Below, one piece after another: positions 33,983 through 41,710 of a DNA stretch of 49,850 nucleotides. The first letter of the stretch is position 1. Every line of letters starts with the position of its first letter. The DNA comes from Patescibacteria group bacterium (GTDB taxonomy: Bacteria > Patescibacteriota > Minisyncoccia > Phycocordibacterales > PALSA-1337). A program made the position numbers and the translations under genes. Location of the stretch: NCBI GenBank assembly GCA_040387635.1, contig JAZKDJ010000001.1, forward strand, positions 1-49,850, read 5' to 3'. The notes beneath the pieces are model-generated. The model was not told the DNA's origin and made no database searches. It saw only the letters and a list, made by a program, of their open reading frames with translations.

Positions 33983-34297
33983 ATGCTTATAACCCAACCA
34001 CAAGGGCATATTTTCGATAGAGTACTGCGCACCAAGGAAGGAAAACTAGTGCGAGTGACTTTTGTCGTTGTATCAGTAGGCGGCGAACTCAAAGCCAAGG
34101 TTTTGAATATTGCTCCTCTTGAAGGACACCAGCCGACACTCAAAGCAGCTGAGATTCTCGCACTCCCAGGCAAGGTTTCAAAAGTTTCCATACTTCCTCA
34201 GAAGAAAACAGGCTTCGAATACAAAAGCATTCTTTCTCCGCTCCAGAATCTTAACTTTTTCATAAGCCAACCAACACGAGCACCATCTACAGTTTAA
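33983..34297 (+). CDS. 104-aa ORF upstream of dnaK; candidate ribosome-arrest (monitor) peptide
   Basis: No signal peptide or TM; C-terminus NFFISQPTRAPSTV with RAP at 34277-34285; possible promoter TTGCGG-N18-TAGAAT at 33921-33950. Confidence 0.7.
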   Translation: MLITQPQGHIFDRVLRTKEGKLVRVTFVVVSVGGELKAKVLNIAPLEGHQPTLKAAEILALPGKVSKVSILPQKKTGFEYKSILSPLQNLNFFISQPTRAPSTV

Positions 34298-34336
34298 GTT
34301 CCGAATTTAGTTTCTACTAAAAGTCTAACTTAAACT
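34291..34336 (+). promoter_or_regulatory. Stem-loop linking the leader stop codon to the dnaK initiation region
   Basis: AGTTTAAGTT (34291-34300) pairs perfectly with AACTTAAACT (34327-34336); inner stem TTTAGT-TTCT-ACTAAA; ends 3 nt before the dnaK ATG. Confidence 0.65.
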
Positions 34337-34339
34337 ATC

Positions 34340-36256
34340 ATGTCAAAAATCATTGGTATTGACCTGGGTACCACTAACTCAGCTGTAGCTGTAATGGAAG
34401 TAGGTACTCCAAAAATATTGGAAAACGCAGAAGGACAGAGAACAACTCCATCGATCATTGCTCAGTCAAAAACTGGCGATCGATTGGTAGGTCTTCTTGC
34501 ACGACGACAGGGTGTTACAAACCCAAAGAACACTATCTATCAGATCAAGCGATTCATCGGACACAACTTCGATGAATCTCAGATCCAGAAGGACAGGTCC
34601 TCAGTGCCATTCGAAATGCAGAAGTCAGCTAACGGAGGTATCGAGGTAAAGATGGGCGACAAATGGTATCGACCAGAAGAGATTTCCGCGATGATCCTCA
34701 CGAAGCTCAAGAATGACGCAGAGACACGACTTGGTGAGAAAGTAACTCAGGCTGTTATTACAGTTCCCGCATACTTCAACGATGCGCAGCGACAGGCAAC
34801 GAAGGATGCTGGTAAAATCGCAGGACTCGAAGTTATGCGAATCATCAACGAGCCTACAGCAGCGGCACTCGCATACGGATTCAACAAAAAAACAAATGAG
34901 AAAATCGCAGTCTTCGACTTCGGTGGAGGTACATTCGATATCTCAGTACTCGAAGTGGGTGATGGAGTCGTGGAAGTGCGATCAACTGACGGAGACGCGC
35001 ACCTCGGAGGTAAGGATATCGACCAGAAGGTCATTAACTGGCTTGCAGACACCTTCAAGAAAGAAAATGGCGTAGATCTCATGAAAGACCCTCTCGCAGT
35101 ACAGCGACTCGATGAGGCGGCTGAGAAGGCAAAGATTGAGCTCTCTACAGCAGTTCAGACTGAGATCAATATTCCGTTCGTAACATCAACAGCAGATGGA
35201 CCAAAGCACCTCGTTGTCACAATGACTCGAGCAAAGCTTGAGGAACTCACACAAGAGTTCATTGATCGCGCGATGACAATCACAAAGCGAGCAATGGAAG
35301 CTTCGCCATTCAAGGTAGGAGACATCAACGAAGTAGTTCTCGTAGGAGGCCAGACACGAATGCCAGCGCTCCAGGCAGCAGTGAAGAACTTCTTCGGCAA
35401 AGAGCCTCACATGGGTGTTAACCCAGACGAAGTAGTGGCAATCGGTGCCGCTATCCAGGGAGGTATTCTCGCAGGAGATGTCAAAGACGTTCTCCTCTTG
35501 GACGTTATCCCACTATCACTCGGAATCGAAACTATGGGAGGAGTTGCAACTAAGCTCATCGAGAAGAACACAACTATCCCAACTTCGAAGTCACAGACAT
35601 TCTCAACAGCTGCAGACAACCAGACTGAAGTAACTATCCACGTTGTGCAGGGTGAGCGACCAATGGCGTCAGACAACAAGTCTCTCGGTCAATTCAACCT
35701 TGGAGGAATCGCTCCTGCACCTCGAGGTATGCCGCAGATTGAAGTTGCATTCGACATTGATGCCAACGGAATTCTAAGCGTCTCAGCAAAGGACAAGGCG
35801 ACCAACAAGACAAACTCAATCAAGATCACAGCAAGCTCAGGCCTTTCAAAGGAAGAGGTTGAGAAAATGAAAAAGGAAGCCGAGATGAACAGCGCCGACG
35901 ACCAGAAGAAGAAGGATACCGTTGAAGCTAAGAACCTTGCGGAACAGCTCATCTACACAAGTGAGAAATCTCTCAAGGAACACAAAGACAAGATCCCTGA
36001 GGACGTAACGAAATCAATTGAAGAAAAGATCACAGCTCTCAAGGGCGTGAAAGATGGACAGGATCTCGCTGCAATCAAGTCAGCAACTGAAGCCCTCTCA
36101 AACGAACTCTCAAAGATCGGAGAGATCATCAGCAAAGCCGCTCAGGAAGAGCAAGCTAAGGCTGGAGCTCAAGGAAATCAGGGCCAGCAGGGAGGTGATC
36201 AGGGAAATGGTGGAGACGAGAAAGTACGAGATGCGGAAGTGAAGGACAATAAGTAA
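34340..36256 (+). CDS. dnaK: Chaperone DnaK (Hsp70)
   Basis: [59 protein letters not shown]. Confidence 0.98.
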
Positions 36257-36270
36257 CTTGAAAAGGAGTA

Positions 36271-36365
36271 AAAAGAAAATCGCCTGCCAGCCTGTATAAA
36301 TACAGAGTGACAAGCGACTCTTGAGTCTCCTTTCTTACTCTCCGTCACGATTGTGGCGGGGAGAG
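36271..36365 (-). repeat. Structured repeat element, copy 1
   Basis: 69 of the first 80 nt identical to 38724-38803; 30-nt identical core CAGCCTGTATAAATACAGAGTGACAAGCGA (36288-36317). Confidence 0.85.
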
Positions 36366-36377
36366 TAGAGGGGAGAA

Positions 36378-36938
36378 TTATTCCTTAAACTTCATTCCAA
36401 AACTATGTATTCGACTACACACCCAGTGGTGCGTGAACGATGACAGATCCAAAGCTTTGAATTCTTCGCTCGTATGACTTAGAAGCTGTTGAATTGAGTT
36501 GATTCCTTTTTTCTTAAGCGATCTTACAACGTCACTGCGCATCCCTAAATCTTCAAATGATTCCGGCGCCCAAATTGGCGAATCCTTTAAAGCGAACTTG
36601 TGACGAGCAAGCGTAAAACGAATATCAGAAAGGGTTATGTGACTGCTATTCCTCATTCTTAACACTTCAATGGGAGTAAGGCGCAGCAAATCTTCGAGTG
36701 TCGAGACTGTGTTATTTACCAAGACATTCAACACTCGATTACTGAAACCAAGGTCACGAAGATTCATATTCTCAGGAGACTTCGTCACAGTCACCCTGAT
36801 TTTTGGTTCGACTGGAACAGTTTTGACTTGAACTGAGACATCCAAATGCTCCTCAGGTAGGAGTTGGTAACCTTTTTTCTTCGTCAACCTTTTCAAGTAA
36901 GCCGAGAGTTTTTCCTGAATTTTTTCAATCGTGGTCAT
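36378..36938 (-). CDS. Protein with two RNAP alpha-CTD-like domains
   Basis: LRDLGFSNRVLNVL.NNTVSTLEDLL and FEDLGMRSDVVRSLKKKGINSIQQLL both match the alpha-CTD start; promoter TTGACT-N17-TATTGT on the minus strand; ATG 36938 preferred. Confidence 0.7.
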   Translation of the reverse strand: MTTIEKIQEKLSAYLKRLTKKKGYQLLPEEHLDVSVQVKTVPVEPKIRVTVTKSPENMNLRDLGFSNRVLNVLVNNTVSTLEDLLRLTPIEVLRMRNSSHITLSDIRFTLARHKFALKDSPIWAPESFEDLGMRSDVVRSLKKKGINSIQQLLSHTSEEFKALDLSSFTHHWVCSRIHSFGMKFKE

Positions 36939-37033
36939 AACACAAAGAAGACATCTAAAAATACAATATAACGAAACATTCAATTAGTCAACTAATATAA
37001 CATGACCGAAACCTGCTAAACTAAGCGTTAATT

Positions 37034-38128
37034 ATGGCAAACAAAGACTACTACAACATACTCGGCGTCGACAAAGGCGCATCCAAGGAGGACATCAAGA
37101 AAGCCTTCAGAAAATTGGCGCACGAACATCATCCCGACAAGAACAAGGGTAATGATGCCAAGTTCAAAGAAATCAACGAAGCGTACAGCGTGCTTTCTGA
37201 CGACCAAAAAAGAAAGCAGTACGACACCTTCGGATCAGCAGGTCCAGGAGCAGGAGGCTTCGGTGGATTCAATGGAGGACAAGGCTTCGGCGGTTTCGAC
37301 TTCTCTCAATTCAACCAGGGCGCAGGAGGCCAGGGATTTGAATTCGACTTGGGCGACATCTTCGGCGAATTCTTCGGTGGCGGCAGTCCTCGAGGAGGAA
37401 GAGCAAAAAAAGGTCAGGACATCCAGGTAGATATTTCAATAAGCTTCAAGGATTCAGTCTTCGGTGCGAACAAGGAGATTCAGTACGAGCATATGGCTCA
37501 ATGTGATACATGCAAAGGCTCAGGAGGGAAGCCTGGAACATCCATGGATACATGTTCTACGTGTGGTGGAGCAGGTAAGGTAAACGAAACGAGACGCTCA
37601 CTCATGGGAACATTTACAGCGACAAGAATCTGTCCTGAATGTCATGGAGCAGGCAAGGTACCTAAGGAGAAGTGCCATGATTGTCACGGCCAAGGTGTGA
37701 AGGACAAGCGCGAATCTTTGACCGTCAAAATACCTGCAGGCGTTGAGAACGGCGAAACGCTCAGAGTCTCAGGCCGAGGTGAAGCTCTTGCAGGCGGTCC
37801 ATCAGGCGACCTCTATATCGTCATCCATGTTGAACGACACGCAACCATCCATAAGAAGGGAAACGATCTCATCACCAATCTCAAGGTTCCTATGACCACC
37901 GCACTTCTAGGTGGAGAGATTTCTCTAGATACGTTGGAAGAGAAACTTACTATCAAGGTCCCTCAAGGAGTAACTCACGGTGAGATTCTACGAGTAAAAG
38001 GCAAAGGAGTTCCAAACGAGAAGGGCAGACGAGGCGACCTCATGATTACGGTTGCAATCAATATTCCAAAGAAACTTTCGAAGCAGGCACAGAAGTTGGT
38101 GGAGGAATTGAAGAGAGAAGGAATATAA
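37034..38128 (+). CDS. dnaJ: Chaperone DnaJ
   Basis: J-domain with HPD, G/F-rich region, four CxxCxGxG motifs, C-terminal domain. Confidence 0.97.
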
Positions 38129-38146
38129 AAAACAAACAGCCAAAGT

Positions 38147-38174
38147 AAAAGCCCCGACTCACATCGGGGCTTTT
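38147..38174. terminator. Bidirectional terminator
   Basis: AAAAGCCCCGA-CTCACA-TCGGGGCTTTT. Confidence 0.85.
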
Positions 38175-38194
38175 CATGAATGGAAGTTCTAATC

Positions 38195-38656
38195 TCAAAT
38201 TCCGCGGAGCCGTAGGCTAAGCAGATGTCCCACAAGCTCCTTACCTTGAGGATATGTAAGTGATCTTGCGATCGATTGCTGGAATAGCATACTGCTGCAG
38301 AGCTTGCGCTTGAGTGCACGAAAGAACATGTCGCCATCTCGGCGTTCTCGCTGAGCTGGGCTAGCTTCGATCTCATCGACTGCTTTACTCGCGCGATCAA
38401 CTAAGTACGAGATGTTCCGGAGCACCTTGTACGGAAGTGGATCGCTGTATGTCGCAGCTTTAGCCAATTGGTCTCCTACGATGCCAATGACCAGTCTCAT
38501 GCAATGAAGAGCGAGCCTCTGTGCGCTCATGTAATCTTTCTTTCTTTTGCATTCGCGGATGAGATATCTCACCCGTTCATGATCGCGACGGATGTGCGGC
38601 GGCACCAAGCTCGACGGTTTCGGACGAGAACGAGTTCTCCTCACGGTTGTTTTCAT
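38195..38656 (-). CDS. Basic helical hypothetical protein (~153 aa)
   Basis: ORF converging on dnaJ; ATG 38656 (MKTTVRR) preferred over 38725. Confidence 0.55.
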   Translation of the reverse strand: MKTTVRRTRSRPKPSSLVPPHIRRDHERVRYLIRECKRKKDYMSAQRLALHCMRLVIGIVGDQLAKAATYSDPLPYKVLRNISYLVDRASKAVDEIEASPAQRERRDGDMFFRALKRKLCSSMLFQQSIARSLTYPQGKELVGHLLSLRLRGI

Positions 38657-38723
38657 AACAAAGCTGCTGGAGTTTTCTTTAGTAAAGGGTAACAGAAGCC
38701 CCATATCGCTGCAAGTTTTATAC

Positions 38724-38816
38724 AAAAGAAAATCACTCGTCAGCCTGTATAAATACAGAGTGACAAGCGATTCTTGAATCTCCCTTCTTTCTCTCTGTCA
38801 TGTTAGTGATAGAGAG
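38724..38816 (-). repeat. Structured repeat element, copy 2
   Basis: Homologous to 36271-36365; overlaps the stop codon of the 38803-39093 gene. Confidence 0.85.
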
Positions 38817-39093
38817 GCCTGCTGGGAGACGAAGGCTCTTTCTTTTCCTTGCTTTGCAAGATTGCTGAGCTAATGGTATTTGAGACATGTAGTCCCATCG
38901 CCATGAGCGCTAGCAACATCGTCATAAACGTAAGGCTAGCGAGAGTTCCTAAACCCATCGCCAAAGCCCACGACTTGTCGAAAGCAAGCACTGCTGTGAA
39001 TGTCACGAGCAGGAAAAGAAATGCTGAGGAAGCGAGAGTGAGAATGAGCGGCATAACTAGTGAATGTGGTATTTTCCCAAGGTTACCCGGCAT
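38803..39093 (-). CDS. Small two-TM membrane protein (~96 aa)
   Basis: Two hydrophobic segments; minus-strand promoter TTGACT-N17-TATTAT with TG extension; ATG at 39093. Confidence 0.6.
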   Translation of the reverse strand: MPGNLGKIPHSLVMPLILTLASSAFLFLLVTFTAVLAFDKSWALAMGLGTLASLTFMTMLLALMAMGLHVSNTISSAILQSKEKKEPSSPSRPLYH

Positions 39094-39195
39094 GAAAGCC
39101 AACCTTCTAACACTTATATAATAGCATAATTATTACATAAAGTCAATCCATATAAAAACCTAGCTAATTCTTATCCTTTCGGTATAATTTCAATT

Positions 39196-40140
39196 ATGAA
39201 AAAAACCCTTCTATCAGCCATCCAACCATCGGGACGGCCTCACATCGGCAACTACTTTGGAGCAATGAAGCAGTTTGTTGATCTTCAGAATGAGTACGAG
39301 GCATTTATAATGATCGCTGACTACCACGCGCTCAACTCTGTCCAGGATGCAAAGGAGATGCGAGAGAATATCCTCAACCTCGCACTCGACTATCTCGCTA
39401 TTGGTCTTGATCCAAAGAAAATTACGCTCTTCAAGCAATCAGATGTTTCAGCTCATGCTGAACTTACATGGATTTTTGATACTGTGACTTCTATGCCTTT
39501 TCTCATGCGAGCGCATGCATTCAAAGATGCTGAGGCAAAGAACAAGGAGATCAGCGTTGGAAAATTCAACTATCCTATCCTCATGGCTGCGGATATTCTT
39601 CTCTACAACACAGACCTAGTGCCAGTAGGACAGGACCAGAAGCAGCACATCGAATACTCTCGAGACATTGCTTTGAAGTTTAATAATATTTTTGGAGAAG
39701 CATTTAAGTTGCCAGAAGCTTTGATCAAAGAAAGCGTTGCTATTGTTCCAGGAGTTGATGGTCAGAAAATGAGCAAGAGCTACAAGAACACCATCGAGCT
39801 TTTTGCTTCAGACGAAGAGATCGACAAGGCGGTTATGAGCATCGTTACAGATTCGTCTGGAGAGGTCCCTAAGAACGTTTACGAGATACATAAGCTCTTC
39901 AGAAGCAAAGCCGAGCTAGACGCTATCTACAGCGAGCATAAGGGCAAATACAAGGCATTGAAGGAAGCATTGGCTCAGGATATCAAGGCATTTGTTGGAC
40001 CACTCCGTGAGAAGCGAGAGAAGCTGTCTCAAGACAAAGCGGCCGTCATCAAAATACTCGAGGAAGGCGCCCTCAAGGCCAAGGCAGTAGCTGACAAAAA
40101 GCTCGCCGAAGTGAAGAAAAAGATCGGAGTGACTCTTTAG
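39196..40140 (+). CDS. trpS: Tryptophan--tRNA ligase
   Basis: IQPSGRPHIGNY, YPILMAADIL, VPVGQDQKQH, KMSKS. Confidence 0.97.
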   Translation: MKKTLLSAIQPSGRPHIGNYFGAMKQFVDLQNEYEAFIMIADYHALNSVQDAKEMRENILNLALDYLAIGLDPKKITLFKQSDVSAHAELTWIFDTVTSMPFLMRAHAFKDAEAKNKEISVGKFNYPILMAADILLYNTDLVPVGQDQKQHIEYSRDIALKFNNIFGEAFKLPEALIKESVAIVPGVDGQKMSKSYKNTIELFASDEEIDKAVMSIVTDSSGEVPKNVYEIHKLFRSKAELDAIYSEHKGKYKALKEALAQDIKAFVGPLREKREKLSQDKAAVIKILEEGALKAKAVADKKLAEVKKKIGVTL

Positions 40141-40186
40141 ATTCGCTGCGATATAATGCACGTATTAATTAACTAACGACAATACC

Positions 40187-40348
40187 ATGGAAGCACACTT
40201 AGACATGAAAGGATTAGACAAGGCATGTGAATGCGGATCTACAAAGCCTGCGGGAAACTGCTGCAAGAAGGATGAGAAATGTCCATGCGGATCAGGACAG
40301 AAGGTGAGCGGATGCTGCCTTATGGGAGTAAGCAAGGCTCGAGAATAG
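40187..40348 (+). CDS. 53-aa microprotein with two SEC-C metal-binding motifs (not in ORF track)
   Basis: CECGSTKPAGNCC and CPCGSGQKVSGCC, both CxC-x8-CC; TATAAT upstream. Confidence 0.8.
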   Translation: MEAHLDMKGLDKACECGSTKPAGNCCKKDEKCPCGSGQKVSGCCLMGVSKARE

Positions 40349-40402
40349 ACGAAGAAGAATAAGTACCGAGACGCAACTAAGCCAGAACGGTTTTACAAAA
40401 AA

Positions 40403-41710
40403 ATGAGTACGAAACAAACCAACCCGGAAGCATACTTCAGGGCGGTTGATTTTATTGACAGCTTCTCCAATAGTTCTATTCGCAAGAATGTTGGCCGAGG
40501 AAAAAGAGAGAAGAAAGATCTCAATTTTTACCTTAACCGCACTAAGTATTTTCTTGACCTTCTCGGCAACCCTGAGAAGTCATTCAAATATATTCACGTA
40601 ACAGGTACGGCTGGAAAGGGAACTGTATCTTCGATGCTCCATGAGACGCTCGTCGCATCGGGCAAGAAGACAGGAATATTCACTTCGCCATTTGTCACCA
40701 CGACAATAGAACAGATCAAAGTGAATAGGGAGTATATAAGCCCTGCGGAGTTTACGAAGCTTGTCGATTACATCAAACCATTCATAGAGAAATCCAAAAG
40801 CGGACCTTACGGCAACCCGTCGGCTTTCGAGCTGTTGTTTGTTATTAGTATTCTCCATTTTGCGAACAAGAAGTGCGAATGGGTTGTTTTGGAAGTTGGA
40901 ATGGGAGGAAGATATGATGCGACAAACATTATAGAGGAACCGGTCATCACGGCCATTACGAACATCGATTACGACCACATGGAGATACTGGGCAAAACTC
41001 TGAATGAGATCGCCACCGACAAGATGGGAATTATCAAACCTGGATGCAGCTTTTTTACTTCTGAACAACGACCAGTGCTCCAAAAGATGTTTGAGAAAAC
41101 ATGCAAAAAAGTAAACGCTAAGTTCCATAAAATTCCTCGTCAAAAAAACTATTCTGATCACAACAAGGAACTAGTGCGGGCCATTGCTTCTGAGCTTGGA
41201 ATTTCCACAGAGCATGTCGAGAAGGGAATTCAAGCTACAAAACTCCCATGCCGCTTTGAGACAATGCAGGATACGCCACTCGTGATATTGGATGGTGCAC
41301 ATAATAGAGCGAAGGTAATAAGCACAATGTCCAATCTCAAGAACTACACGTTCAAAAAGCTCTTTCTCATTACTGCAATCTCAGACACAAAGAAAGAAAA
41401 GCAGCTCATCATCGAACCCCTCATTTCAAATCCTTACGACATGACTGTGATCCTGACTCAGACCAAGACGAAGGAACGTAGCTCAGTGTCTCCGAATTTT
41501 CTCAAGCCTTTAGTACAGAAGTATTTAAAAAAGAACTCAAGGCTCGAGCTGATCGACACTCCTTCCAAAGCTCTAGAATATGCATTGAGTAAAGCAGGGA
41601 AGGACGACGTGATTCTCGTTACCGGATCGTTTTTCCTAGCCGGCGAGCTTCGAAAGAAATGGATTTCAGAGGCTTGGGTACTTGAGAATCTGCGAAGTTT
41701 CAAAAATTAA
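40403..41710 (+). CDS. folC: FolC-like folylpolyglutamate/dihydrofolate synthase (Mur ligase family)
   Basis: IHVTGTAGKGT, FTSP, LEVGMGGRYDATN, IDYDH, LDGAHN, VTGSFFLAG. Confidence 0.85.
   Translation: MSTKQTNPEAYFRAVDFIDSFSNSSIRKNVGRGKREKKDLNFYLNRTKYFLDLLGNPEKSFKYIHVTGTAGKGTVSSMLHETLVASGKKTGIFTSPFVTTTIEQIKVNREYISPAEFTKLVDYIKPFIEKSKSGPYGNPSAFELLFVISILHFANKKCEWVVLEVGMGGRYDATNIIEEPVITAITNIDYDHMEILGKTLNEIATDKMGIIKPGCSFFTSEQRPVLQKMFEKTCKKVNAKFHKIPRQKNYSDHNKELVRAIASELGISTEHVEKGIQATKLPCRFETMQDTPLVILDGAHNRAKVISTMSNLKNYTFKKLFLITAISDTKKEKQLIIEPLISNPYDMTVILTQTKTKERSSVSPNFLKPLVQKYLKKNSRLELIDTPSKALEYALSKAGKDDVILVTGSFFLAGELRKKWISEAWVLENLRSFKN

What the first reader, a model, noticed from the sequence alone, without database searches (positions are those of the whole stretch)
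36271..38816. Duplicated ~95-nt covarying RNA element at the 3' ends of two unrelated accessory genes flanking dnaJ
Seen: copies at 36271-36365 and 38724-38816 in direct orientation, identical at 69 of the first 80 nt. On the minus strand each folds as hairpin A, a small hairpin B (GACU-CAAG-AGUC versus GAUU-CAAG-AAUC, a C-G to U-A compensatory change) and a long stem plus U-tract. The four differences in the 3' arm of that stem (UGGCAGGCGA versus UGACGAGUGA) all keep pairing with the invariant UCGCUUGUCA through WC or G-U pairs. On + they would include C-A mismatches, which fixes the strand as minus. Extended hairpin B overlaps the 5' arm of the terminator, so the two folds compete. Inference: a selected RNA element (conditional terminator, 3'-UTR sRNA, or a small mobile unit carried with accessory genes). 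Recombination between the copies would excise dnaJ.
Basis: partly seen in the sequence, partly recalled or inferred. Interest (0 to 1): 0.65.

Follow-up and report, generated by a model that had tools for sequence, protein, structure and literature searches.

The report
Duplicated terminator module built on conserved hairpin
The two ~106-base copies are a real, duplicated transcript-end signal behind two orphan genes on either side of dnaJ. One half of it is a hairpin that related tiny bacteria keep at the same spot between dnaK and dnaJ; the proposed on/off switch is not supported.

Summary
The repeat is real: 36271-36376 and 38724-38829 are direct copies, 79% identical over 106 nt and 88% over 77 nt. 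The 566-kb genome holds only these two copies.

On the minus strand each copy folds as hairpin A, then a 20-bp hairpin, then UUUUCUUUU. Each follows a minus-strand orphan gene (ORF186, ORF99) that interrupts the dnaK-dnaJ-trpS order kept in relatives.

Main new result: hairpin A of copy 1 belongs to a conserved, covarying hairpin family.
- I found it in 10 other Taylorbacteria-type sequences (six families plus one metagenome contig).
- It is always between dnaK and dnaJ and always antisense.
- A U-run follows it.
- What lies between it and dnaJ ranges from nothing to a 197-aa ORF.

The long second hairpin is specific to this genome. Copy 2 is a derived duplicate.

"Hairpin B" competition is negligible: probability 1e-5 to 1e-7, at a cost of 9-12 kcal/mol.

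Best reading: a constitutive intrinsic-terminator / 3'-end module. Why hairpin A keeps its sequence is unresolved. No Rfam match. No transcript data could be obtained.

The parts
36271..36377 (-). Copy 1 of the 3'-end module (hairpin A + long hairpin + U-run). It lies between the convergent dnaK (+) and ORF186 (-).
36326..36376 (-). Hairpin A of copy 1: a three-tier hairpin with a CU-rich 5' arm and a GA-rich 3' arm. It is a member of the conserved dnaK-dnaJ-spacer antisense hairpin family.
36276..36321 (-). Long terminator hairpin of copy 1 (14 bp + 6 bp, with G-U pairs only on the minus strand). It is specific to this genome and sits between hairpin A and the U-run.
   Evidence: no hit elsewhere
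36271..36279 (-). U-run UUUUCUUUU of copy 1. It resembles the UUUUUCUUUUU that directly follows hairpin A in relative G343.
38724..38830 (-). Copy 2 of the module, between ORF99 (-) and ORF153 (-). It is a derived duplicate: hairpin A' scores 17.9 bits with model R2 and is not found with R3.
38778..38830 (-). Hairpin A' of copy 2. Its 5' arm encodes the last 9 codons and the stop of ORF99. The fold is kept (-20.3 kcal/mol) with a 2-nt register shift.
38729..38774 (-). Long terminator hairpin of copy 2.
38724..38732 (-). U-run UUUUCUUUU of copy 2.
36378..36938 (-). ORF186: an orphan protein with an RNA polymerase alpha-CTD-like domain. It is the cargo of the dnaK-dnaJ slot.
36963..36991 (-). 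Promoter-like site TTGACT-17-TATTGT for ORF186.
38803..39093 (-). ORF99/96: a small hydrophobic orphan protein, the cargo upstream of copy 2.
39118..39146 (-). Promoter-like site TTGACT-17-TATTAT with TG, for ORF99.
38195..38656 (-). ORF153 (169 aa if started at 38704): an orphan gene downstream of copy 2 with no recognisable promoter of its own.
38147..38174 (.). Canonical bidirectional terminator (AAAAGCCCCGA...TCGGGGCTTTT) between the convergent dnaJ and ORF153.
34340..36256 (+). dnaK.
37034..38128 (+). dnaJ.
39196..40140 (+). trpS.

Best explanation
The 106-nt repeat is a two-part transcript-3'-end module read on the minus strand.

Part 1, hairpin A, is this genome's version of a sequence-conserved, covarying hairpin. 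In related Taylorbacteria-type CPR genomes that hairpin sits once per genome in the dnaK-dnaJ spacer, antisense to the operon. A U-run follows it, directly in 7 of 10 relatives. There it has the form of an intrinsic terminator. It closes whatever minus-strand unit lies between it and the dnaJ start, from nothing to a promoter plus an unrelated ORF of up to 197 aa.

Part 2 is a 46-nt palindrome forming a 20-bp hairpin. It is specific to this genome. It lies between hairpin A and the old U-run and now supplies the stem next to the U-run.

The whole two-part module was then copied once into the dnaJ-trpS spacer. There it ends the promoter-ORF99 unit and precedes ORF153.

Inferred function: constitutive Rho-independent termination and 3'-end protection of the antisense accessory transcripts. 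Copy 1 would stop them before they run antisense into dnaK. Copy 2 would lower or stop read-through into ORF153.

Shown: the sequences, folds, substitution pattern, synteny and family membership. Inferred: transcription, termination efficiency and the order of events.
For: Repeat and folds. Only two copies in the genome.

Both copies follow minus-strand ORFs that have consensus promoters. G-U pairs and the U-run are on the minus strand only. The genome uses hairpin + U-run terminators generally.

Hairpin A family:
- All 10 strong covariance-model hits outside this genome, plus one metagenome pattern hit, lie between dnaK and dnaJ in antisense orientation.
- In the 7-sequence alignment 98.4% of cells pair, 6 pairs change on both sides, and 0 of 500 shuffles reach this.
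- In 9 sequences there are 141 Watson-Crick pairs, 16 U-G pairs and 5 others. That is 96.9% paired on the antisense strand against 87% on the sense strand.
- The hairpin arms are 77-92% identical between families, while dnaK third codon positions are about 40% identical.

Cargo is present or absent within a genus (G012 vs G022; G202 vs G272/G105), and the cargo ORFs are unrelated. The U-run is directly after the hairpin in 7 relatives.
Against:
- Genomes with an empty spacer keep the hairpin but have no recognisable minus-strand promoter. Termination of a cassette therefore cannot be its only role.
- Ordinary terminators are not conserved in sequence across families. This one is, including unpaired bases.
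- In this genome hairpin A is no longer next to a U-run, yet both copies keep it.
- The statistics from the two copies alone are weak.
- ORF153 has no promoter of its own, so copy 2 may be leaky rather than a full stop.
Confidence: 0.6

Rival explanations
1. Hairpin A is itself a functional RNA: a small antisense or 3'-UTR-derived RNA. It would act on the dnaK-dnaJ transcript, for example by uncoupling dnaJ from dnaK expression, or bind a protein. Termination would be secondary, and the accessory genes would merely use it as a transcript end.
For: - Sequence conservation is far above silent sites, and it includes unpaired bases.
- The hairpin is kept in empty spacers only 10-85 nt from the dnaJ start.
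- Both copies here keep it even though a second hairpin now carries the U-run.
- In G332 the outer stem is replaced by a different, complementary pair of arms while the core is kept.
- A known precedent for an RNA in this spacer is tpke11 of E. coli and Salmonella (PMC12077118).
Against: - No promoter was found in front of it in empty spacers.
- No target or partner has been identified.
- Copy 2 has diverged so far that the family model no longer finds it.
- The distribution is patchy: about 2% of 401 genomes sampled in the order.
Confidence: 0.22
2. The module is the portable end of exchangeable gene cassettes. Conserved ends would act as homology for swapping small genes between spacers and between genomes, and the second copy arrived with ORF99.
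For: - The same module sits at two different spacers in this genome, each behind a promoter + orphan-gene unit.
- Cargo differs within genera.
- The cargo leaders of G012 and G202, from different families, share 29 nt at 93%.
- A hairpin with 17 of 18 nt of the 5' arm identical lies at a non-dnaK locus in G184.
- Earlier notes from this scan describe such slots in other CPR genomes.
Against: - The hairpin is resident in empty spacers, and the promoter comes with the cargo, not with the hairpin.
- There is no rise in similarity at the adjoining end of dnaK.
- No recombinase, terminal repeats or target duplications were seen.
- No phage or plasmid match.
- No compositional anomaly.
Confidence: 0.1
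3. Conditional terminator: hairpin B (columns 51-62) competes with the 5' arm of the long stem and switches termination on and off.
For: - The sequences can pair, and one position pair differs as C-G versus U-A.
- ORF153 behind copy 2 lacks its own promoter.
Against: - Hairpin B pairs have probability 4e-5 to 5e-8.
- Forcing them costs 8.9 and 12.2 kcal/mol.
- Even then an 8+6-bp stem remains.
- In the nascent transcript hairpin A, which shares bases with hairpin B, forms first.
- Hairpin B is absent from all relatives.
- Copy 1 has no gene downstream to regulate.
Confidence: 0.03
4. The repeat encodes a micro-protein: MTE[S/R]KKGDSR[V/I]ACHSVFIQA..., starting at GTG 36348 / ATG 38801.
For: The frame is open in both copies. 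Four of the six differences in the first 20 codons fall on third positions, and both copies have a start codon at the same place.
Against: - There is no Shine-Dalgarno sequence.
- The C-termini differ (49 vs 22 aa).
- The third-position excess has p about 0.1 for one frame.
- In relatives the frame and start are not kept, and the long hairpin that would encode half of the peptide is absent.
- The RNA-pairing model explains all 10 substitutions; the peptide model explains only 6.
Confidence: 0.02

Closest known systems
Rho-independent (intrinsic) transcription terminators, including the A-tract/stem/U-tract bidirectional type common in this genome
   Same: - A stable stem-loop followed at once by a U-run.
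- Placed just after stop codons on the same strand.
- The lower stem pairs with the first Us of the run.
   Different: - It is unidirectional: G-U pairs become A-C on the other strand.
- A second, sequence-conserved hairpin precedes it.
- That hairpin is conserved across families at one syntenic site, which ordinary terminators are not.
[quoted passage not shown]
   Same: A conserved RNA element in the spacer between dnaK and dnaJ, discussed as a means of expressing the two genes differently.
   Different: - No sequence or structure match: Rfam gives no hit.
- The element here is read on the strand opposite to dnaK and dnaJ.
- The lineage is unrelated (CPR).
Phage 'morons' and similar autonomous promoter-ORF-terminator units inserted between conserved genes
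   Same: ORF186 and ORF99 each have their own consensus promoter and a terminator. They sit between genes that are adjacent in relatives.
   Different: - This is a chromosome of a free-standing CPR genome, not a phage.
- There is no compositional difference.
- In relatives the terminator is a resident feature of the spacer, not part of the inserted unit.
Small dispersed intergenic repeats (REP/BIME, MITEs) and integron attC sites
   Same: Short, hairpin-forming repeats at the 3' ends of genes. attC sites follow cassette ORFs.
   Different: - Only two copies.
- No terminal inverted repeats or target duplications.
- No RYYYAAC / GTTRRRY core sites.
- No integrase was seen near the element.

Membership tests
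Intrinsic (Rho-independent) terminator | Stable GC-containing stem-loop directly followed by a U-rich run on the transcribed strand | tested here: met
   A 14+6-bp stem followed by UUUUCUUUU in both copies. In 7 relatives hairpin A itself is followed directly by U5-U7.
Intrinsic (Rho-independent) terminator | Located downstream of a gene on the same strand | tested here: met
   Copy 1 starts 1 nt after the ORF186 stop. Copy 2 spans the ORF99 stop.
Intrinsic (Rho-independent) terminator | Transcripts end at the U-run | not testable with these tools
Riboswitch / attenuator (conditional terminator) | Mutually exclusive alternative fold of comparable stability | tested here: not met
   Hairpin B has probability 1e-5 to 1e-7. 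The forced fold is 8.9-12.2 kcal/mol worse.
Riboswitch / attenuator (conditional terminator) | Lies in the 5' leader of a regulated gene | tested here: inconclusive
   Copy 2 is 68 nt upstream of ORF153, which lacks its own promoter. Copy 1 has only antisense dnaK downstream.
Any Rfam 15 family (including tpke11) | Covariance-model match | tested here: not met
   No relevant hit at E <= 5 in window 34000-41000, or at E <= 1 in six relatives' loci.
MITE / REP-like dispersed repeat | Many copies per genome | tested here: not met
   Two copies by BLAST, short-word BLAST and covariance model. Relatives have one hairpin per genome.
MITE / REP-like dispersed repeat | Terminal inverted repeats with target-site duplication | tested here: not met
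   The repeat ends (UCUCCC... / ...GAUUUUCUUUU) are not inverted copies of each other, and the flanks share no duplication.
Integron attC site | R''/R' core sites RYYYAAC ... GTTRRRY flanking an imperfect palindrome | tested here: not met
   I read the sequence of both copies on both strands and found no such cores.
dnaK-dnaJ-spacer antisense hairpin family (defined here, models R2/R3) | Three-tier hairpin with core CCAYUCUCCCC-RCGAY...RUCRYGGRGAGUAGG, between dnaK and dnaJ, antisense | tested here: met
   Copy 1 scores 69.8 bits with R3, but it is one of the sequences the model was built from. Position and orientation match the other members. Copy 2 is not met: it is not found at E <= 0.5 with R3 and scores 17.9 bits with R2.
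Moron-like autonomous gene unit | Own promoter and terminator, inserted between genes that are adjacent in relatives | tested here: met
   Promoters; relatives' synteny. However, composition is not deviant, and the terminator hairpin is resident in the spacer.

The most novel reading that the evidence does not exclude
The hairpin A family is an undescribed, conserved antisense RNA of the dnaK-dnaJ spacer in Taylorbacteria-type CPR bacteria. It would have a regulatory role of its own, for example pairing with the dnaK-dnaJ co-transcript to set the DnaK:DnaJ ratio, or binding a conserved protein. At the same time it would serve as the ready-made terminator that lets newly arrived or new-born small genes settle there. 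In this genome the module has begun to spread to a second spacer.
Probability: 0.2. Interest if true: 0.7.

Novelty: new variant of a known kind. Interest (0 to 1): 0.5.

Why it matters
As first described, this is a duplicated terminator and would be ordinary. Three things raise it above that.
- Half of it is a sequence-conserved, covarying hairpin. It is kept at one syntenic position, antisense between dnaK and dnaJ, in several CPR families whose silent sites are saturated.
- It matches no Rfam family.
- It marks a spacer whose gene content varies even within a genus.

That makes it a concrete, testable handle on two open matters in these uncultured, reduced genomes: how chaperone genes are controlled without CIRCE-type operators, and how orphan genes gain a working transcription unit.

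If the hairpin is only a terminator, the practical value is smaller. It is then a well-defined unidirectional terminator for CPR annotation.

Tried and rejected
- Extra copies in the own genome: BLAST, short-word BLAST and covariance model R1 found only the two copies.
- BLAST in 60 relatives: nothing.
- Exact core patterns of the long hairpin: nothing in genome contigs or metagenome contigs.
- Rfam: nothing relevant.
- Phage and plasmid collections: nothing.
- A second assembly carrying ORF186 (Logan SRR26324620): identical over 8.5 kb, so no strain variation or empty site.
- Homologues of ORF186, ORF153 and ORF99: none. PHROGs: none.
- Homology among the cargo ORFs of relatives: none. The one apparent hit was antisense dnaJ.
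- Hairpin B switch: rejected on energetics.
- Micro-ORF in the repeat: rejected, because it is not kept in relatives and not significant.
- A UUG-started ORF after the SD-like AGGAGA: it stops after 8 codons in copy 2, so rejected.
- attC and MITE readings: the defining features are absent.
- A recombination tract at the adjoining end of dnaK: no excess similarity.
- A promoter in front of the hairpin in empty spacers: none at the tool's threshold.
- Similarity of the ORF99 leader to the G012/G202 leader: only a 10-mer, not significant.
Full report
**1.

The window carries a direct repeat at 36271-36376 and 38724-38829. It is 79% identical over 106 ungapped nt and 88% over the 77-nt core. In a self-BLAST of the whole 566-kb genome its E-value is about 1e-18, and it is one of only about a dozen dispersed repeats.

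On the minus strand each copy folds as follows:
- a three-tier hairpin A;
- a 4-nt linker;
- a 14+6-bp stem with a UUUA loop;
- UUUUCUUUU.

The fold energies are -47.1 and -44 kcal/mol, with z-scores of -6.1 and -5.7. Every pair of the consensus fold is kept in both copies. On the plus strand 6 and 5 of the 32 pairs would be A-C mismatches. With only two sequences the statistics are modest. Ten substitutions with no broken pair has p about 0.017, and that figure is biased because the structure was derived from both copies. For the terminator stem alone, five transitions with no break has p about 0.15.

**2. The setting.**

The gene order is:
- dnaK (+, 34340-36256);
- copy 1;
- ORF186 (-, 36938-36378), with an RNA-polymerase alpha-CTD-like domain;
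- dnaJ (+);
- a canonical bidirectional terminator (38147-38174);
- ORF153 (-);
- copy 2;
- ORF99 (-);
- trpS (+).

ORF186 and ORF99 each have a consensus minus-strand promoter. ORF153 has none. Copy 1 begins 1 nt after the ORF186 stop. The 5' arm of copy 2 encodes the last nine codons of ORF99.

Relatives are Parcubacteria / Taylorbacteria-type MAGs whose dnaJ is at most 58% identical. They keep grpE-dnaK-dnaJ-trpS. The three minus-strand ORFs have no homologue among 5.8 billion proteins or in PHROGs. 'Accessory genes flanking dnaJ' is therefore correct. Base composition is unremarkable.

**3. Copy number.**

BLAST, short-word BLAST and a covariance model of the whole unit (R1) find only these two copies in the genome. 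The long-hairpin core is absent from 185,000 species genomes and from the metagenome collection, and from phages and plasmids. A second assembly of the same organism is identical over 8.5 kb.

**4. Hairpin A is not private to this genome.**

R1 picked up a 62-nt match in genome G039. It covered hairpin A only and was followed directly by U6. It lay between dnaK and dnaJ, on the opposite strand, 5 nt after the stop of an unrelated 197-aa ORF.

I built hairpin-A models R2 and then R3, and searched about 400 genomes of the order and 40 of the family. This gave strong hits in G039, G156, G343, G272, G202, G105, G332, G012 and G022. A pattern scan added one metagenome contig. Named records are Candidatus Taylorbacteria and 'Patescibacteria group' MAGs.

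All of these hits lie in the dnaK-dnaJ spacer, all antisense to the operon.

The fold is supported by covariation:
- 98.4% of cells are paired;
- six pairs change on both sides;
- 0 of 500 shuffles reach this;
- slid controls pair at 50-63%.

In G332 the whole outer stem is replaced by a different complementary pair of arms around an unchanged core.

The strand is the antisense one. Nine sequences give 141 Watson-Crick pairs, 16 U-G pairs and 5 other cells. That is 96.9% paired on the antisense strand against 87% on the sense strand. A U-run follows on that strand, directly in 7 of 10 relatives.

The arms are 77-92% identical between families, while dnaK third codon positions are saturated at about 40%. 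No Rfam family matches.

**5. What lies between the hairpin and dnaJ varies.**

The gap is 10-85 nt with no ORF in G022, G272, G105, G332 and the metagenome contig. It is 330-650 nt in G156, G343, G012, G202, G039 and this genome, and there it holds mutually unrelated ORFs of 70-197 aa. Alignments within a genus show clean presence or absence of about 400 nt (G012 vs G022; G202 vs G272 and G105).

Long gaps carry a near-consensus TTGACA/T-17/18-TAxxxT promoter beside the dnaJ start. Short gaps have none at the same threshold.

So the promoter travels with the cargo, and the hairpin is a resident feature of the spacer. Notes from earlier agents of this scan describe the same kind of antisense 'slot' in other CPR genomes. 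I treated those as leads. The statements above rest on my own calls.

**6. How the element in this window was built (inference).**

In relatives hairpin A abuts its U-run, for example GGGGA-UUUUUCUUUUU in G343. Here the sequence reads GGAGA-[46-nt palindrome]-UUUUCUUUUU. The long hairpin therefore looks like an insertion between the old hairpin and its old U-run.

Copy 1 is at the ancestral site and fits the family (76.9 bits with R2, 69.8 with R3), though both models were built with copy 1 among their sequences. Copy 2 scores 17.9 bits with R2 and is missed by R3. Copy 2 is therefore the derived duplicate of the already composite module. Hairpin A of this genome is also the most divergent family member, at 58-70% identity. 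That fits relaxed constraint after it lost its U-run, yet both copies still fold.

**7. Mechanism.**

The best-supported reading is a constitutive, unidirectional intrinsic terminator and 3'-end-protecting module for the antisense accessory transcripts. Copy 1 would shield dnaK from convergent transcription. Copy 2 would separate ORF99 from ORF153, and it may be leaky because ORF153 has no promoter.

- hairpin B pairs have an ensemble probability of 4e-5 to 5e-8;
- forcing them costs 8.9-12.2 kcal/mol and leaves an 8+6-bp stem;
- hairpin A, which shares bases with hairpin B, forms first in the nascent chain;
- hairpin B does not exist in relatives.

An open frame through the repeat (MTE[S/R]KKGDSR[V/I]ACHSVFIQA) shows a third-position bias. 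It is not significant, it has no ribosome-binding site, and it is not kept in relatives.

**8. What remains unexplained.**

A plain terminator does not need conserved unpaired bases. It also does not need to persist in spacers with no visible antisense promoter. Hairpin A may therefore have a second role, as an antisense or 3'-derived small RNA or as a protein-binding site. I give that reading about 0.2.

The nearest precedent for an RNA in this spacer is tpke11 of enterobacteria (PMC12077118). It is unrelated in sequence and is not known to be antisense.

The family's distribution is patchy: about 2% of the genomes sampled in the order, spread over six families. The searches used strict filters. 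Vertical retention with many losses cannot be told apart from lateral spread. I found no excess similarity at the adjoining end of dnaK.

Transcript evidence would settle most of this.

**9. Verdict.**
- Observation: confirmed.
- Interpretation: partly supported. It is a selected minus-strand RNA element at the 3' ends of accessory genes. It is not a conditional terminator and not demonstrably mobile.
- Novelty: a new variant of a known kind. It is an intrinsic-terminator module whose older half is an undescribed conserved hairpin family tied to the dnaK-dnaJ spacer.

Noticed in passing
L088 (G012) and L076 (G202), minus strand just downstream of the slot promoters: The cargo units of two genomes from different families share a 29-nt leader at 93% identity (GGGUUGGCUUYAGAAAGGAAGCC.UGGUG...CCCGAACAA). 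The small hydrophobic ORFs that follow are not detectably related. This suggests a common origin or exchange of cassettes.
   Followed up: partly
window 38803-38830: The last nine codons and the stop of ORF99 are encoded by the 5' arm and loop of the duplicated hairpin A'. The protein tail (SSPSRPLYH) therefore derives from the repeat. The stop codon arises from a change relative to copy 1 (CACAAUC to CACUAAC).
   Followed up: partly
window 36346-36348 and 38799-38801 onward, minus strand: An open frame runs through both copies (MTE[S/R]KKGDSR[V/I]ACHSVFIQA). Differences fall at alignment columns 35, 41, 47 and 53, spaced exactly 6 nt apart, all on third codon positions. It is not significant and not conserved in relatives, but the regular spacing is odd.
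   Followed up: yes
whole genome G000, e.g. C1:60392-60442, 145220-145274, 157846-157923: The genome carries many long, perfect A-tract/stem/U-tract palindromes (32-78 nt), apparently bidirectional terminators. The module studied here differs from them in being unidirectional.
   Followed up: partly
L078 (G184:C2:2218-2271, minus strand): A hairpin + U-run shares 17 of 18 nt of its 5' arm (UCUCCCCUCUACUCUCC) and ACGGAGAGU with copy 1. It lies at a locus with no dnaK or dnaJ within 1.5 kb. It may be a relocated relative of hairpin A in another family.
   Followed up: partly
L075/L076/L077 (genus g83), between the dnaK stop and the hairpin: A further conserved block of about 77 nt (87-89% identity), containing UCAUAC-UUUC-GUAUGA hairpins, lies between dnaK and the antisense hairpin. 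It may be the dnaK 3' end or terminator of that genus.
   Followed up: no
L014:10874-10956 (minus strand): A weak R1 hit about 4.8 kb from dnaJ: a hairpin-A-like three-tier hairpin whose apical part reads GGGUCGAAUCCCG (resembling a tRNA T-arm), followed by a second small hairpin and a U-run, right after a stop codon.
   Followed up: no
window 38657-38723: ORF153 has no recognisable promoter or Shine-Dalgarno sequence between the U-run of copy 2 and its start. Gene callers disagree on the start (153 vs 169 aa).
   Followed up: partly
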